Of a DNA stretch of 40,000 nt, positions 4,493 to 37,563 are shown piece by piece. The position numbers and the translations under genes are program-made. Below the pieces are notes generated by a model. The model made no database searches and had not been told where the DNA came from. It was given only the letters and a program-made list of their open reading frames with translations. Numbering within the stretch: position 1 is the first letter of the stretch; the number at the start of each line of letters is the position of its first letter. The DNA is from a bacterium (GTDB lineage Bacteria; Patescibacteriota; Gracilibacteria; Absconditabacterales; Absconditicoccaceae). The stretch lies in the NCBI GenBank assembly GCA_043772005.1, contig JAYVGP010000009.1, forward strand, positions 4,328 through 44,327, in the 5' to 3' direction.

Positions 4493-7400
4493 TTAGAAGT
4501 TATCAGCAAAAGCTGAACCAAGATTAGTAGTTGAGAATCTAAGACCTGAGATAGTAGTCATACTATCTTCTTCTGAGTATGTTACATTTGCAGAATTCTT
4601 GTAATCGATAGCGATAGAAGAATCAGCTCCAAATGAAGCAGCATCAAGATCTACATAGAATGTAGCAGTCTCACCAGCACCTAAGATACTATCAGTACCT
4701 GTAAGGTTGAATGTTACTACACCAGCTGTACATGTACCAGTACCAAGAGTCGTAGAGTCACCTCTAAGAGCAAGGTTTACAGTACCTGAGAATCCAGCGT
4801 TAGTAGCACATACTAATGTAAGAGTCTTAAGAGCCAATTCAGCATCTTCAGTATCAGCTTGCTTAGAGTTAGTCCAAGAGTCAGCTGTAATTACCAATTT
4901 ACCGATTGTCTGATTAGGACTTGAAAGGTTTGAAGTATCGTAGTCAGTAAGAGCAAGAGCGCTAATTCTAACAGGAACGATAGCAACAGTATATGGAGAG
5001 TTTACATTAGCTTCAGTGATATCACTATTAGATGACATACCTTGAGCTTCTACTATCTGGAGACCGATTGTGAAATCAGGACTTCCATAGTTAGCAGTAA
5101 GACCATCACCCATAACATTAGTTACCAATCTTAGGTAGAGTACTTCAGTTTTACCTGCAGTAACTACATAGTTAAGATCGTTGATCTGTATAGATGTATC
5201 ACCATCAGATACAGTACCTTCGCTACCAGCGTTGAGTACAGTACCATCAGCCTTAACAATTTCTACCTTAGATACTAGATCAGTAAATACAGCAGCATTG
5301 TTGAAGGTAATAGCAAGATCTTCAAGTTTGATATCTTCATCACTAGCCTTAACTTTGAATGCAGCTACGTTCTTAGTAGAACCAGCAACAACATACATAT
5401 TGTTTTTGATAGTAGAGTTTGTAGTATCAGCAGATACGTCAAGATCACCATCACCTACGAGAACGATTGCTCTTGTAGTAAAGCTTGAACTATTAGCAAC
5501 AATATCGTTTTCATCGTCTCTAAACTCAAATGAACTTACGTTAGCTGAGATAGAACCAGTAAGACTATTGTTTGATGTTACGTCGATCTTCACAACATAC
5601 TTCTGAGTAGAAGATGCAGCGATGATTTCGTTGAATCCATCAAGATCAAGTGTACCAGCATTTGTGATATCACTACCGTTCCAAGATTCGATTACAGTAG
5701 CTGAACCGTCCTTGTAAAGAGCAATCTTAGTAATGTAGTTCTTGTTGAAGAATGTAGCATTACCAGTCATCATAAATTCTTTGAACTTGATAGATGAACT
5801 ATCATCAGTTTCAACTTGGAATGTGAAGAAGGCAATATCTTTTTGACCAGCTACTACGTCAAGAGACTGAGCAGAGATCTTAGATACCTTAACACCTGGT
5901 TCTACAATAGTAAGCTTGTCGAATGTCAATGAAGATGGAGTGATATCAGTGATATCTTCGTTTTCATCAAGATCTTCGAGAGCTATATTACTAGCCATAA
6001 GACTTAGTTGTACTGTATCTGCTACAAAACCGCTAAGATTAGCTTTAGTATCACCACGTACTTCGATTCTTACTTTCTTACCAGTTGGGATAGAAAGAGC
6101 AAGATCGTCGAATGTAAGAGTATTACCAATAGCATCTACTTCTTCAGTACTACCATCTACAGATACTTCGATTTTGTCAAAGATACCAGTCATAGTACCA
6201 CCACCAACAACACTAGCGTTGAATACAAGTGTATCGAGTTCTACATCGCTACCAGCGTTGACCGTAAGGTCAAATGCAGCAAGCAAGTAGTCGTCTCTAT
6301 CTTGTCTCATTTCGTCGATATCGAGGTTTACTTCTTCGAGAGTGACATCACCAGCGTCGATAGTAATTGTTGAACCAGCAGTAGGAACAGCATCGAGAGT
6401 TACAGCAAGACCGTAACCATATTTAGCGTCATGACCCATGATGTAATTTACGTCATCGATGATAAGCTTGATGTCTTCACCAATACCTGAGATAGGATCA
6501 GCCATTACTTTGAAGTCTTGTGATTCACCATCAGCGATCATAAGTGGCTTAGCAAATGTGAAAGTAAGATACTTACCGTCAACTTCTGATACTGTAGCTA
6601 CTTCTACACCATCAAACTCAAGAACGAAGTTCTCAAAGTTAGTTCTGATGTTGTTTTCGTCGTCTTCAAGAGTAATAGAGTCGATCATTACATCGTAGTC
6701 AGCATCCTTGTTTTCGATTTCGAATGAAGCAATTTCTACACCCTTGTCTCCAAGTTGTACAGTGTCGTCATTAACATCCATGTCGATTTCGATTTCAGTA
6801 GCGTTAACTGCACCTACTCTAAACTTGTTAGCGTCAACAGCGTCAACAGCGTTACCGTTTACTTCGATAGCAGCAATAGTGAACTCTTGGTTAGATGCAA
6901 TAGCTTCGTCTCCGATAGTTGCAACTACATCTACAGTCACTACATCACCAGCGGCGAGAGTAAGAGTAGGAGTAAGAGTAAACTCTCTTGTACCATCAGA
7001 TTCAAATGATCTAGTCTTAGAAGCAATTGTACCGTTGATGTAAAGAGTTACATCTTGGATAGAATCCTTGTTACCAAGACCGAGTCTTTCGAGAGTAATA
7101 GATGCCAACTTACCAGCTTTGTCAGCTTCGATGTCGAATGAAGCGACATGAGCAGGAGCAAGACCAGGAAGAGTAGTACCCTTTGGAGATTCAGCAGAAA
7201 CTGATACAGTGTATTCACCGTTACCAACTACTACAGGATCTACAGGGTCAACAGGATCTACTGGATCTGTAGGTTCTGTAGCACCTCTGTAAAGCATAAG
7301 AAGAGCTTCGTATCTAGTGATAGGTCTGTCAATAGCAGCACAGTCCGTTTCCTTAGTGATACCATTCTCTTGTGCATAAGTACAATAGTTCTTATACCAA

Positions 7401-7858
7401 GGAGAAGTAGCTTCATCCATTGATCCATCAAGTCCTCTTACGAGAGCTACGATAAATTGAGCTTTAGTCATGTTTGTTTTAGCCATAAACGCGTTATTTG
7501 AACCTCTAAGCAATCCTTGACCACAAGCTGTAGTAATAGATGCAGAAAGTGAAGGATCAAACATAGCAGCGTCTGAGAAGCTACAATCAATTGTTTCATC
7601 AACTTCAGTACCGAGAACTTCAGTAGCGAAAGCTGATAAGAATTTAGCTCCTTGTTCTCTTGTAAGAGTAGCAAAAGGCATAAAGGCAGTTTCTGTGCTG
7701 TACATTGTTAAACCTGTATTGTAACCCCACGCAAGCGCAGCGTCGAATTCAGGATCGTTCAATGCTCCAACCACAGGCGAAAGTGCCGTGAGAGTTACAT
7801 TAGCCATCATAGCAATAAGCATTGCAGATGATACTAGTTTTACGTTGAATTTATTCAT
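4493..7858 (-). CDS. S-layer-like surface protein with N-terminal signal peptide and three SLH-like domains (1121 aa)
   Basis: One unbroken ORF even in the standard code (track 4493..7951). I start it at the internal ATG 7858-7856, where MNKFNVKLVSSAMLIAMMANVTLTALSPVVGA looks like a signal peptide. SLH-like segments are present (WGYNTGL...FMPFATLTREQGAKFL; FSDAAMFDP...MTKAQFIVALVRGL; SPWYKNY...ITRYEALLMLYRG), then a PTDPVDPVDPVDPV linker, then about 850 aa of T/S/D/V/N-rich modules. Confidence 0.75.
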   Translation of the reverse strand: MNKFNVKLVSSAMLIAMMANVTLTALSPVVGALNDPEFDAALAWGYNTGLTMYSTETAFMPFATLTREQGAKFLSAFATEVLGTEVDETIDCSFSDAAMFDPSLSASITTACGQGLLRGSNNAFMAKTNMTKAQFIVALVRGLDGSMDEATSPWYKNYCTYAQENGITKETDCAAIDRPITRYEALLMLYRGATEPTDPVDPVDPVDPVVVGNGEYTVSVSAESPKGTTLPGLAPAHVASFDIEADKAGKLASITLERLGLGNKDSIQDVTLYINGTIASKTRSFESDGTREFTLTPTLTLAAGDVVTVDVVATIGDEAIASNQEFTIAAIEVNGNAVDAVDANKFRVGAVNATEIEIDMDVNDDTVQLGDKGVEIASFEIENKDADYDVMIDSITLEDDENNIRTNFENFVLEFDGVEVATVSEVDGKYLTFTFAKPLMIADGESQDFKVMADPISGIGEDIKLIIDDVNYIMGHDAKYGYGLAVTLDAVPTAGSTITIDAGDVTLEEVNLDIDEMRQDRDDYLLAAFDLTVNAGSDVELDTLVFNASVVGGGTMTGIFDKIEVSVDGSTEEVDAIGNTLTFDDLALSIPTGKKVRIEVRGDTKANLSGFVADTVQLSLMASNIALEDLDENEDITDITPSSLTFDKLTIVEPGVKVSKISAQSLDVVAGQKDIAFFTFQVETDDSSSIKFKEFMMTGNATFFNKNYITKIALYKDGSATVIESWNGSDITNAGTLDLDGFNEIIAASSTQKYVVKIDVTSNNSLTGSISANVSSFEFRDDENDIVANSSSFTTRAIVLVGDGDLDVSADTTNSTIKNNMYVVAGSTKNVAAFKVKASDEDIKLEDLAITFNNAAVFTDLVSKVEIVKADGTVLNAGSEGTVSDGDTSIQINDLNYVVTAGKTEVLYLRLVTNVMGDGLTANYGSPDFTIGLQIVEAQGMSSNSDITEANVNSPYTVAIVPVRISALALTDYDTSNLSSPNQTIGKLVITADSWTNSKQADTEDAELALKTLTLVCATNAGFSGTVNLALRGDSTTLGTGTCTAGVVTFNLTGTDSILGAGETATFYVDLDAASFGADSSIAIDYKNSANVTYSEEDSMTTISGLRFSTTNLGSAFADNF

Positions 7859-8080
7859 CCGAATAAAAGTAAAAAATAAAAAAGAATTACATGAGACAAA
7901 ATATCTCACTGTGTCTCCACACAGCTTGACGCCAAGATAGTGATCAGACATACGAATACAAGTGAAAATGTACCAATGTCTGACACGCCCTGTGTACGGT
8001 CGTCACCATGTATGTACGACTATATCTGATGCTTGTGACAATTATGATGTCTGACAGAGTATGTATTAGATTGACAATCT

Positions 8081-19269: not shown

Positions 19270-19276
19270 TTTTATG

Positions 19277-19348
19277 CAGGCCCTGCAAGACTCGAACTCG
19301 CGACGCGAGGCTTTGGAGACCTCCGCTCTACCTCTGAGCTAAGGGCCT
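19277..19348 (-). tRNA. tRNA-Trp (anticodon CCA)
   Basis: Hand fold: acceptor AGGCCCT/AGGGCCT with A1-U72 and G73, D arm GCTC-AGAGGTA-GAGC, anticodon arm GAGGT-CTCCAAA-GCCTC, T arm GCGAG-TTCGAGT-CTTGC. Confidence 0.9.
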
Positions 19349-20876: not shown

Positions 20877-23800
20877 TTATAGGAGGTTTTGTAGGGTTTC
20901 TCGTAGGGTAGATCGTCGAGATTGAGATTGTGATGCATCGTGTGAAAGCTGTGATATGAGCAATCATGATCCGATGTCTATTCATGTCGTTTGACTCAGT
21001 ATTGGATCAAGATAGATTGCTGGATAATGTTGCTGGATATATAGTTTCTCTTGATAATACTGGGCATTACGGTCCGATAAGGTTTGAATATATTCCTTAC
21101 TCGACTGATATAACTGTGTAATACGAGTAGCATATGCACGAGACTGTTCAAGTTTGGTATGAAGCAGATCGATATAATCTTGTTTACTATTGGTAATGCT
21201 ACGATATGTTTGGTATAATTCATTCGTCTTACTACGATAACGATCCCATATATCACTAATTTCTTGATACTGTTCTTGTTTCAGCACCTTATTGATAAGT
21301 TTTTGTTCTCTCAAATCAAGGTTCAATAGTTCTAATGCATCGTCACTATCCGATATTGTCACAATCTGACCTTCATCAGCATAAAGTTCGCGCATCTTGT
21401 TGGAAATCTCAATAGTCGTCAAATCAAGCATATCTGAACTATGATAACTGCCATAACATACTTGGTCGTATATGGTTTCTCAATCAGTCAATGCAACACA
21501 TCATCCGTCGTTGGGTAGTGGAAATGAATCATAGATCAACTGCGCTAAGTCCGATCATCAAGATCAGGTGATAACTCTATTAGCCTTATTATTAATCACT
21601 AACAATAAAACTGATCACGATTGCGCTTGTTCATCATCCCATATCAATGAGACCAACTCTCATCCATCAGTATCACGTCACGGCGGATCAGCAATAATAC
21701 GATCAATCATAACTGCTTGATGCTGTTGAAAACGATACAACGATAATGATGCATCAGTATTGCTCGACGATGCTGTTCCACTGGATGATTGCTGTTGAAT
21801 AGATGTATCGAACGAGCATTCTCAGCCAAGTTGATCTTGCGCGTTAACGGTGCATCACTGCTTTCTGATATTGGTAGCAAGCACATCATGCTTATCCTTT
21901 CGCTTACGATAGAGGTCCTCATAATAGGTCGAGGTAGATGATGGCGAAGTAGATGATGAACTACTACTTGATATCGATGGATAGCTGATAAATGAATGAG
22001 TCTGACACAGCTGCTGTCCATCCTTGCTAATCGTGAGCTGTAGTGGTGCAAGTATCGCTTGGGGCAGAGTGAAATATCATGGATTGCAGCTGTCGGAGCC
22101 GGTGAACGTAAGTCAAGATCGCTGACACTGGTAGCTACTAGAATTTTGTATTTCATCTCTATCCAGCGATGCAATGAGGTTGATCGAGTTGCCAAATCTC
22201 AATGGAGTTGTATGCTGCGCCACAATACCACATACATGCTGTTCTCCAGTTTGAATGATAGTTGTTGTGAGCGTATTGGTGATCGTTTGCTGATGTATTG
22301 CTCCATAAAACATATATTCATCTTCACAAACCATAGTAGCACCACTATATTGTTGATAGGTAACACGGTGGGATCATGGAGCAAATGACTGTCACAGCGA
22401 ACATGAATTATTGGTTGATATAGCTCAATCGACCAATCGGGAGCTTGATGAGCAAGTTGAGTCTACTAAACTTCCGGACACAGTAAATCATGCAGAAAAT
22501 GATCCTGTGATATATCACTCATTGACAGCACTAATACGACATCATCCGATTTGTGGGACTTGTATTGATTGATGACAAGATGTCAGAAGAGTGGTTGCTT
22601 GATTGGTAGTAAAGATTCTTGTGCCTCATGAGTATGAAGTGAATATACTTGCTTTATTGGCTTGTGTGGATGAATAAATGACTGAGTCAAGCACCAAGCC
22701 TGATCAATTGCTCATAATAAGAGATTCTCCGTCATCGGTGAGCGTCATATTGGGCACCAGTATGACATTGTCAGACAAGACTCCACTCATCGATTCCACA
22801 AGGTATCGTACCGATCCAGACTGAGCTGAAATATCAAAGATCTTACTGGTATCTGATGTTCCCAGCCCAGCAATAGTGAGGGATCATGAGTAGGGTGCAG
22901 TAAACGACAGTGATAGATGCTCACCCACACAGTCAGCAAATGGATATATTTGAGAAATCTGGATCGATCAGGTAAGTTGTGTTCAAGTTAAAATTATTCA
23001 GGTCATGACTATTCATGTAACAACAATACCTGTACTAGCAGCTCCCGTGATTATCATTCAAGTTACAACAGTTCATGTCGTTACTACTCCAGTAAAAATG
23101 GTACCAGTACTAATTGATCATGTTATCAACAATCAAGTCGAAATAGTTCATGTGTTTGCAGGAAATAACGTGAGTCACCGCACGAGTCATGGATTGCCAC
23201 GATGTCATGAAATGATATTTGTGTTGTGAGATATTGGCGTAACTTGCCAGAGTTGTTGAGAAAAATCATACTCTCGAGCAGCAGACTGGTTATCGGATCA
23301 TAGTACTTGTGATACAATCAGATCGAGAGAGTCAATCACGTCTCCACTATAGATCAGCTGTAATGAGCGAGCAGTAGTATCTGTCATAGATAATCACTGC
23401 CCAGATACAATATCAAATCACGATGACACTACCATCGCTAGCGTATCACCAATCACTACGCTCTCATTGGTTCATAAATTCAAAGTAGTTGTTAGTAATC
23501 AAGATGTTTTGACTCAAGAAATACTCACTGATCCTATAAAAGGATCTCACCGATTTGTTAGTTCAATATATTCATCAGTACCATCGATCCTGACTTCAGT
23601 GATGCTGAGCTGTGGCGATGGATTTGGTAGTACGAATGATGTCATCATAAGCATCAATGACGAAATATCTTCCTGTGGCTCATTTTCAACACTAGAATAA
23701 GCGATTTCTGGTGGATTTTGCTCCACTGCTCACTGTCAGACTGTGGGCTGGGACGAATCAGGGATCAATAATCCTCACGTACTATCTAACGGTCATGATC

Positions 23801-24164
23801 ACACAATACTACCTGATGAGTTAGACACAACATCTGTCGTACTTCATGATTCGACACCAGGAAAGATATTAGTATCAGATTGATCTTGCGCAATATTGCT
23901 ATCACTATCGACGATAGGTAAAAGCTCTGGCTGTCATGGTTTGTCTGACATAAGACTTAGAACTTCGACAGTATTGGACGCTTGCTCTGATTCAAAATCA
24001 TTATATACAAGCTCTTCTCAAGATCACGGGATCGAAATAGTGATGTCTTGTGCGACAGCCCGACTCAAACATGTCTGACATAGTATGACAACTATCGACA
24101 TTCGACTTAGACATGTCTGACATAGTATGACATAATACGACAGCAAACAATACTTGTCTGACAT
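20877..24164 (-). CDS. Giant surface-type protein with three lamin-tail-domain (LTD)-like segments, a (TGxxx)13 repeat and a Q/Y-rich coiled-coil C-terminus (about 1095 aa)
   Basis: One minus-strand frame has no TAA/TAG from 24236 down to TAA at 20879-20877. Track ORFs 22113..22334 and 20982..21431 are in this frame. LTD-like motifs: ITEVRIDGTDEYIELTNRG; IQISQIYPFADCVGEHLSLS...LTDDGESLIM; MIDRIIADPPGRDTDGGELVSLIW...LPNDGGCVALTDGETIYDQVCYG. The start is uncertain: ATG at 24164, 24101 or 23951. Confidence 0.65.
22965..23153 (-). repeat. 13 tandem 15-bp units encoding the pentapeptide repeat T-G-x-x-x inside the LTD gene
   Basis: Translated: TGTIS TGLLI TGSIS TGTIF TGVVT TGTVV TGMII TGAAS TGIVV TGIVM TGIIL TGTQL TGS. 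The Gly codons in order are TGA TGA TGA GGT GGA TGA TGA GGA GGT TGA TGA TGA TGA. Confidence 0.85.
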
Positions 24165-27988: not shown

Positions 27989-27990
27989 AA

Positions 27991-28531
27991 ATGCAAAAAA
28001 TTACTTTTATCACATGAAATCAACACAAGGCAGATTATCTTGCTCAATTTCTTGGCTATCCAGTAGACCACATCAAACTTGATCTGGATGAAGTTCAATC
28101 CACAGATCTTCGTGAGATTGTAGAACATAAAGTTAAACAAGCCTACAGTATAGTCAAAAAGCCCGTCATCGTGGAAGACGTATCATTAGAATTTGAAGAA
28201 TTAGGTTGATTACCAGGACCATTTATCAAATTTTTTTGTCGATAAAGTACCATTTCAAAACGTATGCAATATGATTTGATTAAATAGAAATGCTACAGCA
28301 AAATGTGTCTTTGGCTATTATGATGGCAAGGAATTACACCTATTTGAGTGAAAACTAGATGGAACTATTACTACACAACCATCAGGAGAAAATTGATATG
28401 GTCGAGATCAGATCTTTATACCACAGTGATACGATGTCACAAGAGCATCACTATCTCCAGAAGATGACCAAAAAACATACCTACAGATTAAACCATTTGC
28501 CCAGCTCAAAGACTTTCTTGAAAGAAGATAA
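27991..28531 (+). pseudogene. Ham1/RdgB-type non-canonical purine NTP pyrophosphatase (ITPase), interrupted by a +1 frameshift in a T7 run
   Basis: Frame 1 (27991-28245) reads MQKITFITGNQHKADYL...VIVEDVSLEFEELGGLPGPFIKFF and then stops. The family-typical continuation VDKVPFQNVCNMIGLNRNATAKCVFGYYDG...GENGYGRDQIFIPQGYDVTRASLSPEDDQKTYL runs in the next frame from 28238 to TAA at 28529-28531. The shift lies in TTTTTTT at 28231-28237. Confidence 0.7.
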
Positions 28532-28547
28532 GTAAGTAAGCATAAAA

Positions 28548-29578: not shown

Positions 29579-30524
29579 TCTGACTATCTCTCAGATACCT
29601 ACGAAACCATGTGCGTTGCTTCTTGGCGAGGCGGCGATCGCCGAGCTGCATGAGTCTGATACACTCTTCACGGTCATACTCTCAGGCCAGATATCACATG
29701 ACGATCGGGTAGAGGATCGGCTTCTTGGTTGTCAGATGCTCTGCGTATCACAGTGAGATGAGGTGCTGGATCTCATCGATAAATCCATGGTCCAGCATCT
29801 GTTCGATCCTACGGTTGATAAGCTCATCACCACTCACTACATCTCTCCGCAGTCCTATCATGAGGAGTGGACGAATAGGTGGATTGGAAGATGTAATCTC
29901 AGCTTTGGTCTTGCCAGTGATGTGGATCATCTCGAGGGCTCTGATGATAAATCTGGTAGAGCTCGGATGATGACGCGCAGCTTCTGCTGGGTCGAGCTGG
30001 GTGAGTAGGGTGTGGCAGTATCACGGTGATAGCAATTCCTCAGACTCGAGGGTGGCTCTATACTCATAGTCAGGCGGGACATCAGGGAGTCAGAAGTTAT
30101 GGTATATCATATCAATATATAATCCGGTACCTCAGACTATGACTGGGATCTTGCCACGTGTCTGAATCTGTCTGACATACTCATGAGCATCAGTCTGCCG
30201 CTGTCCTGCAGTATAAATCTCATCTGGATCCACTATATCAATCAGGTGATGAGGCAACTGAGCACGGATCTCAGGACTGACCTTGTCAGTACCAATATCC
30301 ATATAACGATATATCTGACGTGAATCAGCGCTGATCACCTCAATCGGGAAACGGTCACTCAGCTGCAATGATAGTGCTGTCTTGCCAGTAGCGGTCTGTC
30401 ATCGGATCGCAATCATCCCGTCGGGATAATGATCGAGAAAATGCTTCACATCTGCTGTGATCTTCTCAATATCATAAGAGCGATACGAAGTGAGTCCCTG
30501 TGGGAGTATCTGATTGGCTTGCAT
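29532..30524 (-). CDS. miaA: tRNA dimethylallyltransferase (330 aa)
   Basis: ATG 30524-30522. P-loop IAIRGQTATGKTALS with the first G as TGA at 30399-30401. Also ISADSRQIYRYMDIGTDK, HHLIDIVDP and PVIVGGTGLY. Track ORFs 30132..30368 and 29748..29930 are in the same frame. TAG stop at 29534-29532. Confidence 0.85.
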
Positions 30525-30601
30525 AAAATAACTATAATGAAAACACAGTCACAAAAAAGATCAAAACAAAAACTCCATCAAAGGATGGAGCCTGAGTATC
30601 A

Positions 30602-31495
30602 TTATGCAATTGGAAGAACAAATCATGTATTTGTAGAACCTGAACCCGATGTATGATCATCGTCTTTATCATCGCTATGATCGTGATCTGAATCGTCTGA
30701 AATCTTTACACCATCTTTTTCTTTTTGTTTCTTTTTGAGATATTCTTCTTTTTCTTTTTGTTCTCTAATTTTGTCTTTGAGAGATTTATCTCATTTATCG
30801 TCCATCTTTATAACCTTACCAGATCATACCTTAGCTCCGGTTCAGGATTTTTTCTCTCGTTCCTTTTGTTTTTCTAGTTTCAATTTCATCATATCACCAC
30901 TTCATTTTGTGCCAGATCATCGTTTTTTGTCTGAATTTATTTTTCCTGTACCCATACTATCTTTATGATGAGGTTTCATATCGCCAGTTCCTTTTGTACC
31001 AGATCATGATTTATGCTCTTCTTTGAATTCTTTTTTTAGGTTTTGATTGGTAGCTTTGGTTGCTTCACGTGCTGCCTGACGAGCATCTTGAAGATCCTGT
31101 CTCATAGACTTAATCGTGGACTCCATCTTAGACTTGAGCTCCTTGCATTGGGTCAGACCTTCTTCTCTCGTAATAGTACCTGAACCTACTTGAGCAATAA
31201 TCACCTTACATGCTGCAATTGTTGAGTTTCTTAGTTCTTGGTTTGCCTTTATAAATTCCTTGCTCGAAAGCATATTTGCCTCTCTTGTGGACTCCCGGTT
31301 ACTGTGAGTAGTATCCAATAGCTTCAATCTATCTTCTTGGTGTTCTAGTTTCTTATGTGTCATACCTGACCCAGTCGTGCCCGTACCAGTGATGGAGTGT
31401 TGATCTACTGTCTTGTCGTCTGCCGATACTACTGTGACTGCTAGTATCGATAAGATACCTATACATATACCCATAACCATGTATCAATGTTTCAT
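30602..31495 (-). CDS. Secreted K/E/D-rich low-complexity protein (297 aa) with GSGTKG(T/S)GDM repeats
   Basis: Signal-peptide-like MKHGYMVMGICIGILSILAVTVVSADDK (ATG 31495-31493). Track ORF 31004..31480 continues through TGA: ...EEHKSGSGTKGTGDMKPHH...KKRGSGTKGSGDMMK...KSGTGAKVGSGKV..., then an acidic/His tail. TAA stop at 30604-30602. Confidence 0.55.
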
Positions 31496-31649
31496 CTGCA
31501 ATTGTAATAAAATAATAAAATTGTACTATATCATACGAACGAGATGATAATTTGCAACATAAGGACAAATAAACCAGTTGACAAGGTCACAATCAATTCA
31601 AAAATCAATTGAAATAGAGAACAACTTGATTATACATCATGACACTAAT

Positions 31650-31726
31650 GGTCATGTAGCTCAGTTGGTTAGAGCGCGTCTCTGATAAGGACGAGGTCGA
31701 AGGTTCAAGTCCTTCTATGACCACCA
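31650..31726 (+). tRNA. tRNA-Ile (anticodon GAU), CCA encoded
   Basis: GGTCATG-TA-GCTC-AGTTGGTTA-GAGC-G-CGTCT-CTGATAA-GGACG-AGGTC-GAAGG-TTCAAGT-CCTTC-TATGACC-A-CCA. Confidence 0.9.
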
Positions 31727-31741
31727 TTACAATTACGATGG

Positions 31742-31769
31742 TCTTCGATGAGAAGATTTTTTGTTTTTA
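31742..31769 (+). terminator. Weak hairpin plus T-run after tRNA-Ile
   Basis: TCTTC-gatga-GAAGA followed by TTTTTTGTTTTT. Confidence 0.4.
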
Positions 31770-31781
31770 TTATATTTTTAA

Positions 31782-33974
31782 CTATTGTTCTGATGGAATT
31801 TTGTTAATAAGGTTCTCATTAAGATCACCTCAAAGACCTAACCCATATACACCATAATCCATGAGTTTTGCAATCTTAGCGCTCACAAACCTACATCGCT
31901 CCTCATGATAGAATCTATGTTCCGTAAAGTATTCACGTAGCTTTCCATGAGTAGGTTTCTTTGATCTCAAAAGACTATGTCGAGCAATATCTTCAATCTT
32001 CCAGTACTGAGGAACAGGATTCCACATATTTTTTTCCTCAGTCATCATATAGGTATATGCTGCGAACATCTCTGATCTCACACCCAAAGATATGGGATTA
32101 TCACTAGCATCATATCCATCGGCAAACTCTTCGAACCAATCACGAACTTTTGATAGCTGTAAATTTACCCCCCATGTTAAGTTTTGATTGATAATTTTTT
32201 TTGCCACCTCATCTACTGTCAGAATATCTGTTAAACGCGACTTAATCGTATTGATAATCTTGCGGCACTGTTCTACCTGAAATAAAGATCAAGCAAGATA
32301 GTTTGCTGTATTGTCGGGTAGGGGTGTTTTGAGTAGCTCTTTGGATATATTCTGAATAATATTTCTACGTGCCAATGGAGTGGGCGGCTCATTCTGAGCC
32401 TCATACACATCCGCAAATAATCGCTTTCTTAGATTCATCGTATGATACTTGTTACGTTTTCTTTTTTCAGGATCTGAGACCGTAGTGTGGCTATCTTTTT
32501 CTAGTTCATCTGCAATATGATTTAAACTGTTCTCTGACTCCAAAATAAGTCTTGTATGACCACTGTTAATCATTTTTATTAGTTCTCATTTAATCCAATA
32601 CTTACCTTTCATGATTTTATCAAAATCACTAATATACATAACATCACAATCATTTAGCTTTTTGGTGAATGTATCAAATCCTTTTGACTTTAGCTCTGGA
32701 TTGGGCTCTTGTGCGATCATCGAGATTTCTTTTGCTAATCCTTCCATACTAAATTCCCATATACGAGCTCTTGGAAATTTACTCTGAATCTCACTGAGAT
32801 AGTGCTTAATGATTGTAGTTTTACCACATCACTTACACCCGCTAATAATACAGTGTTTAATAGTATCATCCGTAATTGGGGATAACTGATCTCTTAGTCG
32901 TTTGGACAACAGACTATCCGCATCGCGATTACCGTTATGAATAGTAAGTTGATTTGATGTTTGAACTTTCTTAGGGCGATTTTTGGAGCGTGCCGCTACT
33001 ATCAAATCATACTCTGATCTTCATTGACCACTTTTGTGACCATATTCTATATGTATTAATTTATGAAAACCAGCTCAAAGGCCTAAAAACTCCTTTGCAT
33101 ACTCTACGAAAGCTCATATCACCTCATTATCAAATATATCCATGTAGCTTTTCACCAACTCTTCTTTTCCAGGATATATAAAATATCGACCAACTAAATT
33201 CTTTGAATTTTGTATTCTATATAATACAAGATTTATTCCACTAATATATAAATTATAATCTTCAATAGAATTATTTCTTTTTAAGATTCACTTAAAATTA
33301 AACCAAAGTTGATTGATGATTTTCTGATCACATACAGGCTTAATCTTAGTATCAAGAAAACAATCTATCACTGGTTTCCCCGTATTAATGTAGGTCTTAT
33401 AGAAATCTGGAGATCAAATAAAATCAATAATAGATCACATAATAGGATAATCTTTGAGATCCTTCTTTATCCTGGAGCTAACGATAGCCGCTCACTTTAT
33501 AAAGTTTTCTACTAAGTTTGTATTCTTCTCTCCACTTCCATAAGTCCACGATATCAGATCATGTTTGATATACTCAAACAAATCGTCTCAATCTTTTCTT
33601 GTTTCAATCAAATATTGATATAGGGATCACTCTTTATCAAGCGCTACCCAAAATTCATCGGCAGTAGGAATGCGTAATTTCTCAAACAACTCTTCTCTTA
33701 TAAATTTAATACTGGATCCCACTGGTCAGCCATCCTCCTCCTTTGGGGGAGTGCTGCTGATGGATGGTATATTTGGAAGTTTTTTGGGAGGATATTGTTC
33801 TGGCAGCCACTCGCCACTTGGCTTCTCTCACATATCGTATTCGTTTCAGGATCATCATCAGGACATCCCCACTATCCCCAATAAATTTATTTGCCCAATA
33901 GAAACTCCTTTACCAAACCTTCATTTGGGGGATTGTGGTAATTTAAGAGGTCAAGATTCTTGTTCAACTCCCAT
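31782..33974 (-). CDS. DnaA-family AAA+ ATPase with about 400-aa N-terminal extension and a divergent C-terminal domain (730 aa)
   Basis: Track ORFs 32289..32573 and 31830..32207 are the tail of one frame that stays open (TGA=Gly) up to ATG 33974-33972. Walker A SGCKGCGKTTII. Walker B and following CDVMYISDFDKIMKGKYWIKGELIKMINSGHTRLILESEN parallels DnaA D.LLIDDIQFL.GK...QEEFFHTFN...GKQIVLTSDR. NLRKRLFADVYEAQNEPPTPLARRNII parallels RLRSRFEWGL...IQPPDLETRIAIL. PLPDNTANYLAGS parallels the lid. The canonical DnaA signatures (GLGKTHL, RQIAMYL, DHTTV) are not conserved. Confidence 0.6.
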
Positions 33975-34115
33975 AACAACTAATGAAAATAACTATCTTA
34001 TAATAAGCATCTATTGTTATATGTCAATATATAATCACAAAAATCAACTATCTAATGAAATTAATACTAAAATCATTATAATCACAATACTTTTTGACCA
34101 CTAAATACATAGCCC

Positions 34116-35771
34116 ATGTCTAAACGCATCGCAGAACTGCTGTATTCTCATGTATCCAGCGACCTCACACTCCTCAAACAACAGTACCCAGATCGTGAAT
34201 GAGACCAGATGGTAGTCAGATTCTCACCGTCTCCAACTGGAATGTTGCATCTGGGAGCCGTATACATGTGTATGATCAATACACTTGTCGATCCACAAAC
34301 ACCGAGAACATTTATTTTGAGAATTGAAGATACTGACCAAAAAAGATTAGTCGAGGGAGCTATAGATCTTATTATTGACGGATTAAAATATTTTGAGATT
34401 GAATTTAACGAATGACCACTTATCAAAACCGATAATTGATATGAAAGCGTAGGTAATTATGGACCATATATCCAGACACAAAGAAGAAAATCATACGATA
34501 TTGTTGCCAAATATCTTATAGAGCACGATCATGCATATCCATGTTTTCTCACCGAAGATGAAGTCGAACAAATCCGCAAGAGCCAGGAGTTACAAAATAA
34601 ACTTCCAGGTATCTATGGTGCATACAGCACCTATCGTCATACTAGTGATGATGATATCATTTGACTTATTGAAGGAAAAACACCATATGTAATTAGACTC
34701 AAAAATAAATACTGACTATGAGACAAAGTTAGTTTCCATGACTTGGTCAAATGAGACAGTACGATGTGAGCCCCACATCAAGATACCGTATTAGTTAAAT
34801 CTGACTGAATTCCTGTATATCATCTTGCTGCTATGGTTGATGACTGGCTCATGTGAGTAACACATATTATCAGAGCAGATGAATGGTTTTCCAGTATTCC
34901 ATTACACCTCTATATCTCATCATTGTTCAATCCACATCCACCTAAGATGGCTCACCCATGACCACTTCTTAAACTCGATGCGGGCAATAGGCGTAAGCTC
35001 AGTAAACGTAAGGATCCTGAGGCCGATGTACACGCCCTACTTGCTGATGGTTATGATGTAGAAGCCATTATCAACTATTTAGCTAATATCGCAAACTCTG
35101 GATACGAGGACTGGTGGTTGGAAGATAATTCAAGATACTACCGTGACTATCCGTTTACAATGGACAAAATTAATAGTGCTGGAGCGATCGTAGATATGAT
35201 CAAGGTGGGCGCAGTGAGTCAAGATACTTTTGGTCGTATGAGCGATAAACAAATCTATGATAAGGCAGTTAAACGATGTCAATCATATAATACTGAGGCT
35301 CTGGATATAATGAAAAGCAACAAAGATATTTGTTTACAGGCAATTAGTATCGAGCGTCATGAAGGCAACGACCCCAAAAGATTTATTACCTATCAAGATG
35401 TAGTAAATCACTGTAGATTGTTTATTGATAGTGAGTTTGATATGATGGAATATCCAGCAGAATGGACTAGCCTGACCTCCGATCAAGTCAGCGAGTTTAT
35501 CAATACCTATGTCCCACTAATTGAGCTCTCACAAACCAAGGAAGCATGGTTTGATCAACTCAAACAAATCTGATGAAAACTTGGCTATGCTGCGAGTAAC
35601 GGGGAATTCAAAGCATGATGATATGTCGGTAAAGTGGGAGATCTCGCGATGATCTTGCGTATCGCATTATGTAAATCTAATAGAACTCCTGACCTATATG
35701 AGACGATGCAAGTGATGGGTATCGAAAGAATAAAAGCAAGATTACAGCAACTAGTTAAGCGGAAGACATAA
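34116..35771 (+). CDS. gltX: Glutamate--tRNA ligase (551 aa)
   Basis: ATG 34116. VVRFSPSPTGMLHLGAV (HIGH region), ILRIEDTDQKR, VYHLAAMVDDWLMGVTHIIRADEW, KLSKRK (KMSKS). Track ORFs 34209..34415 and 35118..35573 are in the same frame. TAA stop at 35769-35771. Confidence 0.9.
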
Positions 35772-35828: not shown

Positions 35829-36992
35829 GTGAACCAATCAACTCTTCAAAAAATAATTATCTACTGATGACTACTCTTGGATGTTATAGGAATCGCAGTA
35901 CTAATACCAGCATTTCCAGAGCTCAAAATATACTATGGGATCAACGATTTTCAGGTGACACTGTGACTAACGATCTACTCACTATGTGCATTTGTGGCTG
36001 CACCGCTCATGGGGCAATTGAGTGATCGCTATGGTCGTAAACTAACACTAACACGATGTGTAGCTGGTACAGTCTTATCTTATGTAATATTACTCATCAC
36101 TCCAGCATACCGAATCTTCTTACTCTCAAGAGTCATCAACGGTATCACTGGATGAAATATATCTATCTTACAGGCGATTCTTACGGACATCTCGAGTAAT
36201 AAGGAAGAGAAAACCAAAAACTTCTGACTTATGTGAGCAATGTTTGGACTCGGCTTTATCATTGGTCCAGTAATCGGATCGTTGCTTCTTAGAGCTGGTA
36301 ATGTATATGGGATATTTTGGTGATGAGCGATCTTTGCAGTACTCGAATTAGTATGAATACTACTATGGTTTCGTAATACCAATACGCCTGAGTCAGGTAA
36401 ACATATCTCACTCAATAGTTTTGGTGTCATCTATAAACACATAAGTAAAGAAAAAATGAGGCCATACTTGATTTCATTTGGGCTATTGGGAGTGGGATGA
36501 TTTATAATCAACTCTACCCAATCATTATACATGAATACTAAATTTGGTACAAGTGGTGAACAATATGGTTATTATCTTGCGATACTATGAGTTATTGCTG
36601 CGGTCAATATGGCCCTATTGATACCTAAATTCTGGACCAAGCATATGAGCAATAAATCGCTTATCACCATGTCACATCTTGCTCTTATTACGGGTTATGG
36701 GGTGATGTGATTTATGACACAAGAGTGGGTGTTTTTAGGTTTTTTTTATGGTGCCATACTATTATGAAACATATATAACCCCCTATATAATGCTGAAATT
36801 ATGTCACAGGCACGTCCTGATGAAGTGGGCGAGGTATCTGGTATGTTATGATGATTACAAAGTTTATTTATGTTTATTGGTCCACTGATAGGTGGGATCC
36901 TTTTGAGTCAGGGTATCAATGTGTTTGCTGTCGCCAGTGTATGTTGTATCATTAGTCTAATCGTCTTGCAATCATATCAAAAAACCAAATAA
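35829..36992 (+). CDS. MFS transporter (387 aa)
   Basis: GTG 35829 (there is no in-frame ATG near the 5' end). LLLDVIGIAVLIPAFPEL and GQLSDRYGRKLTL (MFS motif A-like), with about 12 hydrophobic segments. More than 20 TGA codons were read as Gly. I checked the frame codon by codon to TAA at 36990-36992. Confidence 0.75.
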
Positions 36993-37002
36993 GCATTACC
37001 AC

Positions 37003-37563
37003 ATGATAGCAAAACAACATAAACTCACTACCAAAGAGGTAAATTATCTCATGAGACGCAAACAATCGGTCTACGTAGATGGATATAAGATTTTATACTG
37101 CGATCAATACCTCAACAATCAATACCATCAAACAGGTATCCAGGTATCGGGCAAAGTCCACAAACATGCCGTCCAAAGAAATATTATTAGAAGAGCATTT
37201 TATGCTGCACGAGAAGATCAGATTGACAAAGCAACACACAATCATTATCACAAGATATTCATCGTAATTCATCCTGAGCATTGTGAGTTTATCGAGCAAC
37301 TAATCGAAAGCGAAAGATTATTAAAAATAGTAAATAACAGTGAATCCCCAGGAAAGGAGAAAGATAATAAAAAGACGCCTCATTTAAAATCCAATCCCCA
37401 TCAACAACTCAAATCACATTTTAATAGTATCATCATATCAGCGCTATGAAAAATCAACAAAACACTATCCAAGCCATGATCTCCAACGTACAATCGTTAT
37501 GGAAAAAGTTCAATATCAAGCCCAAGTCGCTCACACTCGATGACGACGAAGACATCACCGTAG
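37003..37563 (+). CDS. rnpA: Ribonuclease P protein component (186 aa when TGA at 37447 is read through)
   Basis: Track ORF 37003..37449 carries the RnpA pattern (KLTTKEVNYLMRRK...GIQVSGKVHKHAVQRNIIRRAFY). Its apparent stop is TGA, so under table 25 the frame continues 38 codons to TAG at 37561-37563. Confidence 0.7.

What the first reader, a model, noticed from the sequence alone, without database searches (positions are those of the whole stretch)
31782..33974. 730-aa DnaA-family AAA+ protein with a 400-aa N-terminal extension and non-canonical DNA-binding end
Reading through TGA fuses two short track ORFs, plus about 1.4 kb with no long ORF on this strand in the track, into one gene. The AAA+ core follows the DnaA order. 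Walker A is CGKTT. Walker B plus sensor I reads DVMYISDFDKI..GK...ELIKMIN..GHTRLILESEN. A box-VII-like LRKRLF is followed by EPPTPLARRNII, matching DnaA QPPDLETRIAIL, and a lid-like PLPDNTANYLAGS is present. The near-universal DnaA signatures (GLGKTHL, RQIAMYL, DHTTV) are absent, and the N-terminal 400 aa have no counterpart I recognise. It could be an extremely divergent chromosomal initiator, a DnaA paralogue or regulator, or an initiator of an integrated element. The gene sits in the most AT-rich, hypothetical-rich part of the window next to tRNA-Ile.
Basis: partly seen in the sequence, partly recalled or inferred. Interest (0 to 1): 0.65.

Follow-up and report, generated by a model that had tools for sequence, protein, structure and literature searches.

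The report
Swappable DnaA-like ATPase accessory gene
A 730-residue protein of an uncultivated bacterium that reads UGA as glycine has an ATPase core related to the replication initiator DnaA, but the gene sits in a variable slot, is missing from sister genomes and exists in barely related interchangeable versions, so it is most likely an accessory gene of unknown role and not the cell's own initiator.

Summary
On the minus strand, 31782-33974 is one 730-codon frame with 21 in-frame TGA, and TGA is glycine here (code 25). Residues about 341-588 are an AAA+ module of the initiator clade. DnaA is the best match by Pfam/NCBIfam (below cut-off), by profile-profile comparison (P 7e-10 over about 200 columns, lid included) and by Foldseek (B. 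subtilis DnaA is the top hit). The N-terminal 340 and C-terminal 145 residues match nothing, including DnaA domains I and IV.

The chromosomal-initiator reading is unlikely. HMMER read all 1.84 billion cluster representatives and found only four related clusters, all from one narrow lineage near Absconditabacteria. The gene fills a slot between tRNA-Ile and gltX. That slot is empty in four sister genomes. Three allele classes, no more than 25% identical to each other, are exchanged between genomes. Two genomes with 96% identical GltX carry versions that are 19% identical, with sharp DNA boundaries at the promoter -35 box and the stop codon. Two classes have a degenerate Walker A, and the DnaA arginine finger is absent.

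The gene is nevertheless under purifying selection (omega 0.1-0.17), uses TGA at the genome-typical rate and has a good promoter. Best reading: a functional, accessory, diversifying DnaA/Orc-type ATPase, possibly conflict-related. Whether a canonical dnaA exists elsewhere in the genome could not be tested.

The parts
31782..33974 (-). Whole coding sequence: 730 codons plus TAG, with 21 in-frame TGA read as Gly
   Evidence: Full-length homologues of 698-765 aa occur in L001, L013 and L017.
33705..33974 (-). aa 1-90: Gly/Pro/Ser-rich, poorly conserved and probably disordered leader, including three consecutive TGA codons
   Evidence: Alignment. pLDDT 22-33. Identical in strain L016 and conserved in L002.
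32955..33704 (-). aa 91-340: N-terminal module of unknown fold, mostly helical then alpha/beta. It is homologous across all three allele classes.
   Evidence: No Pfam, PDB or DnaA domain I signal.
32211..32954 (-). aa 341-588: DnaA-like AAA+ module, made of the alpha/beta core plus the lid
   Evidence: hhalign against a 4-sequence DnaA profile: P 6.9e-10, about 200 columns. Pfam Bac_DnaA 22.5 bits against a cut-off of 23. Foldseek top hits are B. subtilis DnaA.
32916..32945 (-). TIHNGNRDAD (aa 344-353), aligned to DnaA 'FV.G.GN..A', the helix that precedes the P-loop
   Evidence: H and N are conserved in all classes.
32814..32840 (-). Walker A, GCK[TGA=G]CGKTT (aa 379-387)
   Evidence: It is degenerate in class B (G[DE]DY[SA]GKDT) and class C (GPSSFDKEE).
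32646..32747 (-). aa 410-443: a two-helix insert between beta2 and beta3, like the initiator-specific motif (ISM)
   Evidence: The AF2 core model has helices 76-87 and 92-107 (segment numbering) with pLDDT 75-87. The insert has the same length as in DnaA.
32619..32645 (-). Deviant Walker B, DVMYISDFD (aa 444-452). The FD pair is invariant in the family.
32529..32552 (-). Sensor-I strand RLILESEN (aa 475-482), aligned to DnaA QIILTSDR
32241..32432 (-). Box VII-like LRKRLF, then EPPTPLARRNII, then the lid helix PLPDNTANYLAGSL...QCRKII (aa 515-578)
   Evidence: The lid alone matches DnaA positions 160-200 at P 3.8e-4. The DnaA HMM hits the same region of L007 at E 0.0023. There is no Arg at the position of E. 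coli R285.
31785..32210 (-). aa 589-730: C-terminal all-helical domain of unknown family, with conserved FEEF, MF..Y.MT, PQ.R..ED and K.PT. It is not detectably DnaA domain IV.
   Evidence: Helix pattern (low confidence).
34000..34027 (-). Best promoter-like site for the gene: TTGACA, 16 nt, TATTAT
   Evidence: 11 of 12 matches. The -35 box is conserved in all six loci that carry the gene, and sequence similarity between allele classes ends right after it.
31769..34115 (.). The variable cassette: 2347 bp that have no counterpart in sister genome L014, where 107 bp join tRNA-Ile to gltX
   Evidence: The L007/L013 comparison gives the same boundaries.
31650..31726 (+). tRNA-Ile(GAT), the conserved left border of the slot
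34116..35771 (+). gltX, divergently transcribed; the conserved right border of the slot

Best explanation
SHOWN. The gene encodes a real, expressed-looking, selectively maintained protein. Its middle third is an AAA+ module of the replication-initiator clade, closest to DnaA domain III. It is flanked by an N-terminal module of about 250 aa and a C-terminal helical domain of about 145 aa, both without known relatives. The family is confined to one narrow UGA=Gly lineage near Absconditabacteria. There it occupies a fixed slot between tRNA-Ile and gltX, which is either empty or holds one of at least three deeply divergent allele classes that are exchanged by recombination in the flanks.

INFERRED. 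It is an accessory gene, not the housekeeping chromosomal initiator. It most likely works as a DnaA/Orc-style molecular switch. The AAA+ core, which may be nucleotide-bound in the window's class A and is probably nucleotide-independent in classes B and C, would drive self-association through the ISM wedge and the lid. The fast-changing terminal domains would supply specificity for a DNA or protein partner.

The pattern of presence/absence, ancient alleles and swapping is what frequency-dependent selection produces. So the most likely role is in genetic conflict: sensing or blocking the replication of invading DNA, or being itself a selfish module. I put about 0.35 on that specific role, about 0.2 on a regulator of the host's own replication, and about 0.7 on the general statement 'accessory initiator-clade ATPase, not the housekeeping DnaA'.
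For: The gene is real and native:
- One 730-codon frame.
- 38% of its Gly codons are TGA, within the genome's range of 20-60%.
- An 11/12 sigma-70-type promoter match 26 nt upstream.
- dN/dS 0.17 against strain L016 and 0.105 against L002.
- Intact 698-765-codon frames in L001, L013 and L017.

Initiator-clade AAA+, DnaA-like:
- Bac_DnaA and TIGR00362 are the best specific families, and Bac_DnaA is the longest match.
- hhalign score is 76, P 6.9e-10 against DnaA, compared with 44, P 1e-5 against DnaC/DnaI/IstB. With the most divergent allele added the scores are 69.6 and 58.5.
- The lid alone matches DnaA's lid.
- The AF2 core has two helices between beta2 and beta3.
- Foldseek ranks DnaA first, then Orc/Cdc6, then Clp. 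The alignment behind that model contained no DnaA sequence.

Accessory and swappable:
- The slot is empty in L014, L015, L012 and L009.
- Window 31769-34115 is replaced by 107 bp in L014.
- L007 and L013 share 94% DNA identity through gltX and the intergenic block and 85% from the stop codon onward, but nothing across the gene.
- GltX is 96% identical between L007 and L013 while the gene is 19% identical. For L007 and L017, GltX is 72% and the gene 58%.
- Against strain L016, dS is 0.247 in the gene but 0.05 in gltX and 0.036 in rnpA.

Rarity: four related clusters (two of them complete proteins) among 1.84 billion representatives. Nothing further in the 5.8 billion-cluster index, GTDB genomes, IMG/VR or JGI metagenomes, apart from fragments from this lineage.
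Against: - No effector or sensor domain of any known defence system was found. The PADLOC hits (mad8, PtuA) cover only the P-loop region and score like generic AAA families.
- The neighbours show no defence genes.
- Loss of the Walker A Gly/Ser-Thr in classes B and C is odd for an ATP-driven machine.
- 'Absent' means absent from this slot on contigs of 11-25 kb. The gene could sit elsewhere in those genomes.
- The profile used for the exhaustive search missed the class C protein, so more divergent members may exist.
- I could not check whether the window's genome has a canonical dnaA.
- rnpA lies 3 kb away, transcribed away from the gene as at many origins.
- Both structure models are poor outside the ATPase core.
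Confidence: 0.55

Rival explanations
1. It is the lineage's only chromosomal replication initiator: a DnaA orthologue that has diverged beyond recognition in domains I and IV.
For: The AAA+ core is closest to DnaA in DnaA motif order. The gene is divergent from a gltX-(MFS)-rnpA string, and rnpA is a classic origin neighbour. There is a local cumulative GC-skew minimum at 34-36 kb. No canonical DnaA was found in the window or in about 190 kb of fetched clade sequence. By eye, the C-terminal helices and the end of the N-module can be laid collinearly on DnaA domains IV and I.
Against: - The slot is empty in 4 sister genomes, including the clade sister to the window.
- Alleles are exchanged: they are 19% identical between genomes with 96% identical GltX. 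That is hard to reconcile with an essential protein that co-evolves with its origin.
- The promoter block upstream stays 94% identical while the protein changes class, so no co-varying binding sites lie there.
- Walker A is lost in two classes, and there is no Arg at the R285 position.
- Domain IV and domain I comparisons give E 0.4-0.9.
- There is no DnaA-box excess: 16 found against 14 expected.
- dnaN is not adjacent.
- The skew dip coincides with the gene's own strand, and another dip occurs at 10-12 kb.
Confidence: 0.07
2. It is the replication initiator of a small selfish or accessory replicon module. That could be a relic of an integrated plasmid or phage, or an extra origin-initiator cassette like the strain-specific orc1/cdc6-origin modules of archaeal chromosomes.
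For: It lies directly downstream of a tRNA gene in a presence/absence slot. It is more AT-rich than its surroundings. It has an initiator-clade ATPase with a private C-terminal domain that could read a private origin. Its interchangeable allele classes resemble incompatibility groups.
Against: - The variable unit is a single gene: no integrase, partition or mobilisation gene, and no flanking direct repeats.
- It has no relatives in IMG/VR or PHROGs.
- Its TGA usage is that of the host genome.
- The only non-coding DNA inside the cassette is about 50 nt of promoter and 5' leader, with no iteron-like array.
- The slot has been kept over GltX divergence of 25%.
Confidence: 0.12
3. It is a DnaA-derived paralogue that regulates the host's own replication (Hda-like or DnaA-titrating), and is dispensable in some genomes.
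For: It has DnaA-type domain III without a DnaA DNA-binding domain, as in Hda. The genomic position is stable and the gene is under purifying selection. The N-terminus of the window and L002 proteins, (G/L)PLKLP, recalls Hda's clamp-binding QLSLPLYLP (from my memory of the E. coli sequence, not tested).
Against: A housekeeping regulator is not expected to exist as three allele classes no more than 25% identical that are swapped between near-identical genomes. The N-terminal motif is not conserved in L001, L013, L007 or L017. The architecture (730 aa, extra N and C domains) is unlike Hda's roughly 240 aa.
Confidence: 0.18
4. It is a decaying remnant without function.
For: Walker A is degenerate in two classes. 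L007 has an in-frame TAA. The gene is absent from several genomes. A neighbouring ITPase gene is frameshifted.
Against: Omega is 0.1-0.17. Six lineages keep uninterrupted 698-765-codon frames despite 75-80% amino-acid divergence. The promoter is conserved. Residues are conserved along the whole length across classes.
Confidence: 0.06

Closest known systems
DnaA, domain III (bacterial chromosomal replication initiator; Pfam PF00308, TIGR00362)
   Same: - AAA+ alpha/beta core plus lid in the same order: G.GN..A helix, P-loop, two-helix ISM insert of the same length, Walker B strand, sensor-I strand, 'RL' box VII, 'PP..(E)tR..IL', 'LP.e...yiA' lid helix.
- Best hit by sequence profile, by profile-profile comparison and by structure search.
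   Different: - Scores stay below the curated cut-offs (22.5 against 23 bits; 19.7 against 343.9 bits).
- Walker A lacks THL, and Walker B is DFD instead of DD.
- There is no arginine at the R285 finger position.
- Domains I and IV are not detectable, and there are about 250 extra N-terminal residues.
- It is not next to dnaN and there are no DnaA boxes.
- It is patchy and recombining instead of universal and vertical.
- In these comparisons it is further from DnaA than DnaC is (76 against 114).
Orc1/Cdc6 (archaeal/eukaryotic initiators), including strain-specific orc1/cdc6 genes next to accessory origins in archaeal chromosomes (the latter from general knowledge)
   Same: Initiator-clade AAA+ with ISM and lid followed by a separate C-terminal domain. 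These are the second group of Foldseek hits (2v1u, 2qby, yeast and human ORC; E about 1e-3). The variable, accessory distribution resembles that of archaeal extra orc genes.
   Different: TIGR02928 gives only E 0.057, and the Pfam ORC-CDC6-like match covers 27 residues of the P-loop. The C-terminal domain is predicted all-helical, not a winged helix (low confidence). No origin-like repeats lie next to the gene.
DnaC / DnaI / IstB (helicase loaders and IS21 transposition helper)
   Same: Same AAA+ clade. hhalign P is 1e-5 to 8e-8 over the alpha/beta core. There is a weak PHROG 'DnaC-like helicase loader' hit for the L001 allele.
   Different: These proteins have no lid and no C-terminal domain, and the match stops at 114-118 columns. 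Pfam IstB_IS21 gives no hit. No transposase or dnaB neighbour is present.
Hda (DnaA paralogue that inactivates DnaA-ATP)
   Same: A DnaA-type domain III without DnaA's DNA-binding domain.
   Different: Hda is about 240 aa and consists of domain III only, with a clamp-binding N-terminal motif and an intact arginine finger. This protein is three times longer, and its motifs are deviant.
Variable 'hotspot' genes of prokaryotic genomes (defence islands, allele-swapped cassettes)
   Same: A fixed slot between core genes next to a tRNA, presence/absence polymorphism, deeply divergent alleles with sharp recombination boundaries, and raised dS relative to the flanks.
   Different: No match to any PADLOC system beyond generic P-loop similarity. 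No recognisable effector domain. Single gene.

Membership tests
DnaA (chromosomal replication initiator) | Reaches the curated thresholds of PF00308 (Bac_DnaA) or TIGR00362 | tested here: not met
   PF00308 scores 20.1-22.5 bits against a cut-off of 23. TIGR00362 scores 19.7 bits against 343.9. Other alleles score lower or not at all.
DnaA (chromosomal replication initiator) | Domain IV: helix-turn-helix DNA-binding domain with the DnaA signature (PF08299) | tested here: not met
   No PF08299 hit at E<=10 for three alleles. hhalign of the C-terminal domain against a 4-sequence domain IV profile gives E 0.44 and 0.72. The PDB profile search found nothing. The loop where DnaA has its basic loop is acidic in the window protein.
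DnaA (chromosomal replication initiator) | Domain I (PF11638) at the N-terminus | tested here: not met
   No Pfam hit. hhalign against E. coli plus B. subtilis domain I gives E 0.74-0.92.
DnaA (chromosomal replication initiator) | Canonical nucleotide site: Walker A G.GLGKTHL, Walker B DD, box VII arginine finger (E. coli R285), sensor II Arg | tested here: not met
   The window has GCKGCGKTT and DFD. D, N, F or I stands at the aligned R285 position. The sensor II position holds R, K, H or R. Classes B and C have GKDT and FDKEE in place of GK[ST]. The verdict rests on the alignment.
DnaA (chromosomal replication initiator) | Origin context: dnaN adjacent, clustered DnaA boxes, skew switch | tested here: inconclusive
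   There is no dnaN in the window. TTATCCACA with up to 1 mismatch occurs 16 times against 14.2 expected, and none cluster near the gene. The skew dip at 34-36 kb is local and gene-strand driven. The genome-wide skew could not be obtained.
DnaA (chromosomal replication initiator) | Universal, single-copy, vertically inherited within a lineage | tested here: not met
   The gene is absent from the syntenic slot in L014, L015, L012 and L009. Its tree is incongruent with GltX. Presence elsewhere in those genomes is not excluded.
AAA+ initiator clade (DnaA, Orc/Cdc6, DnaC, IstB) | AAA+ alpha/beta core with an extra helix (ISM) between beta2 and beta3 | tested here: met
   AF2 predicts helices 76-87 and 92-107 between strands 71-74 and 111-114, with pLDDT 75-87. 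The insert length equals DnaA's. hhalign P is 7e-10 (DnaA) and 1e-5 to 8e-8 (DnaC group). The top 12 Foldseek hits are DnaA and Orc/Cdc6. This is a prediction, not an experiment.
AAA+ initiator clade (DnaA, Orc/Cdc6, DnaC, IstB) | Lid subdomain after the core (present in DnaA and Orc, absent in DnaC and IstB) | tested here: met
   The lid segment alone aligns to DnaA 160-200 at P 3.8e-4. A DnaA HMM hits L007 residues 207-299 at E 0.0023.
DnaC / IstB helpers | PF01695-type core without lid, partnered with DnaB or an IS21 transposase | tested here: not met
   No PF01695 hit. A lid and a C-terminal domain are present. No transposase or helicase neighbour exists in any locus.
Hda | About 240 aa, domain III only, with an N-terminal clamp-binding motif | tested here: not met
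   The protein is 730 aa with extra N and C domains. The motif-like (G/L)PLKLP occurs only in the window and L002.
Known anti-phage defence systems (PADLOC) | A significant match to a system protein, with the system's other genes present | tested here: not met
   mad8 gives E 5.9e-5 and 4.6e-7 over the P-loop to Walker B only. MADS is an 8-gene operon, and no partner genes are here. Neighbours give no hits.
Integrated mobile element | Integrase or recombinase, att repeats, relatives in viruses or plasmids | tested here: not met
   None were found in the window or the loci. There are no IMG/VR relatives and PHROGs gives nothing specific. The plasmid collection was not searched.

The most novel reading that the evidence does not exclude
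This protein is a working replication initiator after all: a DnaA descendant in which all three accessory domains have been remodelled. It would serve either as this lineage's only initiator or as the initiator of an exchangeable extra origin, so that closely related cells of a candidate-phyla-radiation (CPR) lineage carry interchangeable, mutually very different initiator types. The evidence does not exclude this because no whole genome could be searched for a canonical dnaA. In addition, the C-terminal helix pattern and the end of the N-module can be laid collinearly on DnaA domains IV and I by eye, although without any statistical support.
Probability: 0.1. Interest if true: 0.9.

Novelty: new variant of a known kind. 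Interest (0 to 1): 0.45.

Why it matters
DnaA is among the most conserved bacterial proteins, and known offshoots of its ATPase module are few: Hda, DnaC/DnaI, IstB and transposition helpers. This would be another offshoot, with two new flanking domains, and it evolves like a conflict gene. It has a fixed slot, presence/absence polymorphism and ancient swappable alleles, in a barely studied UGA=Gly lineage with a genome of about 1 Mb. If it acts on replication of foreign or host DNA, it would be a new way of using initiator machinery. If it turned out to be the initiator itself, it would overturn the assumption that DnaA is invariant and vertically inherited.

On the practical side, the case shows that a 'DnaA-like' call from motifs alone is not enough. 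Population-level context settled the question here.

Tried and rejected
1. AlphaFold2 on the full-length protein with 3 sequences gave pLDDT 41, which is unusable, and Foldseek on that model gave noise. The tool accepted only the stored translations, which have Trp at TGA sites. That probably hurt both models.
2. The second model (core only, 7 sequences) is usable only for residues 40-190 of the segment. The lid and the C-terminal domain stayed below pLDDT 50, so the C-terminal fold remains unknown.
3. My eye-level alignment of the C-terminus to the DnaA signature (RSEMFAAY.. against RQIAMYL, KKPTHGKL against RDHTTVL) was rejected as unsupported, with hhalign E 0.44-0.72. The same goes for the end of the N-module against DnaA domain I, E 0.74-0.92.
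4. I first read L007 as proof that the N-module is a separate gene. That was withdrawn. The two ORFs are in one frame separated by a single TAA, and L017 has the same allele class uninterrupted.
5. The PDB 'DciF' hit (E 0.11) and the PCNA hit (E 0.008 with no passing stretch, on a triple-repeat chain) were treated as chance.
6. The PADLOC mad8 hit was judged generic P-loop similarity.
7. Positional orthology test: I looked for a canonical dnaA next to gltX in outgroup Absconditabacterales and found none there, so the test was uninformative.
8. Literature searches for DnaA in Gracilibacteria, Absconditabacteria or Patescibacteria found nothing relevant.
9. GTDB genomes, IMG/VR and two JGI metagenome scans gave no new members. 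An alignment that included class C was too divergent to derive search patterns from.
10. The GC skew within 40 kb was judged uninterpretable.
Full report
**1. The observation**

The feature lies on the minus strand. The reverse complement of 31782-33974 reads as one frame: ATG at 33974, 730 sense codons, TAG at 31782-31784, and 21 in-frame TGA with no other stop. Under the standard code the region breaks into ORFs of 125 aa or less.

Reading TGA as sense is justified for the whole window, because every long ORF has in-frame TGA. It means glycine. In alignments of this gene, gltX, pheT and miaA with relatives, columns holding a TGA face Gly 63 times and Trp never. In the Walker A the window's TGA faces a GGN codon of a homologue and vice versa. 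The only tRNA-Trp in the window has anticodon CCA.

The gene's share of TGA among Gly codons is 0.38, typical of this genome, where the range is 0.20-0.60.

**2. What the protein is related to**

Sequence profiles give only sub-threshold hits, all in aa 355-486.
- On the isolated ATPase segment, Pfam Bac_DnaA is the best and longest specific match: E 1.4e-4, 22.5 bits against a cut-off of 23, profile positions 30-127 of 162. It sits among generic AAA models.
- TIGR00362 (DnaA) is the best NCBIfam hit at E 3.7e-4. That is 19.7 bits against a cut-off of 343.9.

I built a four-sequence DnaA profile (E. coli, B. subtilis, A. aeolicus, T. maritima domains III-IV, taken from the PDB alignments). I also built a four-sequence DnaC/DnaI/IstB profile.

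| hhalign comparison | Score | P | Columns |
|---|---|---|---|
| Family against DnaA | 76 | 6.9e-10 | about 200 |
| Family against DnaC/DnaI/IstB | 44 | 1e-5 | 114 |
| Family plus most divergent allele, against DnaA | 69.6 | 7.7e-9 | 188 |
| Family plus most divergent allele, against DnaC/DnaI/IstB | 58.5 | 8e-8 | 118 |
| DnaA against DnaC/DnaI/IstB | 114 | 7.6e-17 | 110 |

The DnaA match (probability 96.6%) runs from the 'G.GN..A' helix through Walker A, the ISM-length insert, Walker B, sensor I, box VII and the lid. So the family is an outlier of the initiator clade, and it is the lid and the pre-P-loop helix that tie it to DnaA. The lid segment alone finds DnaA's lid at the correct place (P 3.8e-4). 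A DnaA HMM hits the lid of the L007 allele (E 0.0023).

An AlphaFold model of the core, built from an alignment of family members only, is confident only for the alpha/beta core (pLDDT 56-87). It shows two helices between beta2 and beta3, the initiator-specific motif. Foldseek against the PDB ranks B. subtilis DnaA first (E 7e-5 to 7e-4). Next come Orc4, ORC1 and Cdc6, then Aquifex and Thermotoga DnaA, then Clp-type ATPases. TM-scores are low because the rest of the model is poor.

**3. What is not DnaA-like**

- The last 145 residues give no signal against DnaA domain IV: no PF08299 hit, hhalign E 0.44-0.72, and no PDB hit.
- The N-terminal 340 residues give no signal against Pfam, the PDB or DnaA domain I.
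- At the aligned position of the E. coli arginine finger R285 the alleles carry D, N, F or I.
- Walker B is DFD.
- Two allele classes have lost the Walker A consensus: G[DE]DY[SA]GKDT and GPSSFDKEE.
- Canonical DnaA boxes are not enriched in the window, with 16 found against 14.2 expected, and none cluster at the gene. No dnaN is present.
- The cumulative GC skew dips at 34-36 kb, but it also dips at 10-12 kb, and the dip tracks the strand of this gene. A 40 kb window cannot locate an origin.

**4. Distribution**

The family is tiny.
- The word-indexed search of 5.8 billion clusters found the window's own protein, one 41%-identical full-length homologue and one contig-truncated 66% homologue.
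- HMMER, reading all 1.84 billion representatives, added one 426-aa protein and one fragment.
- A second indexed search added only fragments.
- GTDB genomes returned one MAG, 'bacterium GFS_12125'. IMG/VR and two JGI scans returned nothing.

GltX of the window has clade relatives at 63-96% identity. Identity then drops to 46% (Candidatus Absconditabacterales) and about 42% (Absconditabacteria and Gracilibacteria). The host is therefore an isolated UGA=Gly lineage near those groups. Sample and isolate names ('GFS', 'BUSI22') suggest glacier-fed streams, but that reading is my inference.

**5. The locus across the clade**

I fetched the gltX neighbourhood of eleven clade contigs.

The gene lies divergent from gltX in:
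- the window and its near-identical strain L016;
- L002, L001 and L013;
- L007 and L017.

In the L001, L013 and L007 group a pyridine-nucleotide oxidoreductase gene sits between it and tRNA-Ile.

In L014, L015 and L012 the tRNA-Ile is followed directly by gltX. In L009 the region is different, and the gene is absent from the contig. Against L014, window 31769-34115 (2347 bp) is replaced by 107 bp. In a GltX neighbour-joining tree the empty-slot pair L014+L015 is sister to window+L002. The pattern therefore needs at least one loss or gain inside the clade.

**6. Allele classes and exchange**

The proteins fall into three classes: A (window, L002, L001), B (L007, L017) and C (L013). Identity between classes is 16-25%, yet they are homologous along the full length.

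Class membership contradicts the genome tree.

| Genome pair | GltX identity | Identity of this protein |
|---|---|---|
| L007 and L013 | 96% | 19% |
| L007 and L017 | 72% | 58% |

At the DNA level L007 and L013 are 94% identical through gltX and the shared promoter block, have no detectable similarity over the 2.3 kb gene, and are 85% identical again from the stop codon onward.

The intergenic block is conserved in all six gene-bearing loci up to and including the -35 box TTGACAT, and it diverges immediately after that. In the window that box belongs to the best promoter match of the region: TTGACA, 16 nt, TATTAT at 34027-34000 on the minus strand.

Even between the window and strain L016 (97-99.5% DNA identity in the flanks), the first 160 codons have dS 0.247. 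That compares with 0.050 in gltX and 0.036 in rnpA, and omega is 0.17. This indicates an imported segment under purifying selection, not relaxed drift. Omega against L002 is 0.105.

L007's apparent two-gene form is a single in-frame TAA. L017 carries the same class uninterrupted at 765 codons.

**7. Interpretation**

The shown facts are:
- a native, promoter-equipped, selectively constrained gene;
- an initiator-clade, DnaA-like ATPase core with deviant catalytic motifs;
- two private flanking domains;
- a fixed slot with presence/absence polymorphism;
- ancient alleles exchanged by recombination.

These do not fit an essential, vertically inherited initiator that must co-evolve with its origin. 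They fit an accessory gene under diversifying or frequency-dependent selection.

I therefore rank the readings as follows:
1. An accessory DnaA/Orc-type switch, most likely conflict-related.
2. A replication regulator.
3. A private initiator of an accessory or selfish module.
4. The housekeeping initiator.
5. A dead relic.

No known defence family, viral family or mobile-element hallmark supports the conflict reading directly, so the function remains an inference.

**8. Limits**

- I could not search any whole genome of the clade for a canonical dnaA.
- 'Absent' refers to the slot and to the 11-25 kb around it.
- The profile used for the exhaustive search missed class C, so further very divergent members may exist.
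- Both structure predictions had to use translations with Trp at TGA sites and very shallow alignments.
- The GltX tree is a simple neighbour-joining tree of one protein.

Noticed in passing
window 1-40000; tRNA-Trp(CCA) at 19276-19348: The whole window is translated with UGA as glycine (code 25). TGA columns face Gly 63 times and Trp 0 times in four gene families. The only tRNA-Trp has anticodon CCA, and no tRNA-Gly(UCA) lies in the window.
   Followed up: yes
window 4493-8041 (-): A 1182-codon ORF, a surface-layer or Ig-repeat-like protein with a long N-terminal leader, uses TGA for only 1 of 85 Gly codons (0.01). Every other gene in the window uses 0.20-0.60. This could reflect recent acquisition from a standard-code organism or a strong expression-linked codon bias.
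   Followed up: partly
window 20877-24164 (-): A 1095-codon ORF with 51 in-frame TGA. It contains a long run of short Gly/Thr-rich repeats (..TGxxxTG..) and Ser-rich stretches, and has no Pfam hit in the neighbour tables.
   Followed up: no
window about 27990-28540 (+): An ITPase (Ham1/RdgB-like) gene is interrupted by a +1 frameshift in mid-gene. The same two half-ORFs are called in the independent assembly L003. It is a pseudogene, a programmed frameshift or a shared assembly error.
   Followed up: partly
window 35829-36992 (+); L016 2269-3189: A second variable slot lies 2 kb away, between gltX and rnpA. It holds an MFS transporter in the window and L014. It holds a DUF4238 gene in strain L016, whose flanks are 97-99.5% identical to the window. 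It holds nothing in L002, L015, L012 and L013. DUF4238 gave no PADLOC hit.
   Followed up: partly
window 33975-34115; L001, L002, L007, L013, L017 intergenic regions: The 80-190 nt between gltX and the gene hold a block conserved in all gene-bearing loci (..GATTATAATGATTT..ATTTCATTAGATA..TGTGATTATCTATTGACAT). It contains a TATAAT facing gltX and the TTGACA of the gene, plus a twice-repeated CTAATGAAAT-like motif. Genomes with an empty slot have a different gltX upstream region.
   Followed up: partly
window 33930-33974 (-), aa 1-15; L002 N-terminus: The N-termini MGVEQESGPLKLPQ (window) and MEVGKDSLPLKLPQ (L002) resemble the clamp-binding QLSLPLYLP at the N-terminus of E. coli Hda, as I remember that sequence. 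The motif is not conserved in the other alleles and was not tested.
   Followed up: no
window 30429-31550 (+) and 30602-31501 (-): Two long overlapping ORFs lie on opposite strands. The minus-strand one encodes a low-complexity Gly/Ser/Thr/Lys-rich protein with an N-terminal hydrophobic segment, and it has a homologue in the same position in L015. It is probably the real gene.
   Followed up: no
window 37003-37563 (+): rnpA (RNase P protein) has no rpmH directly upstream, because the MFS gene ends 10 nt before it. In relatives rnpA follows gltX directly.
   Followed up: no
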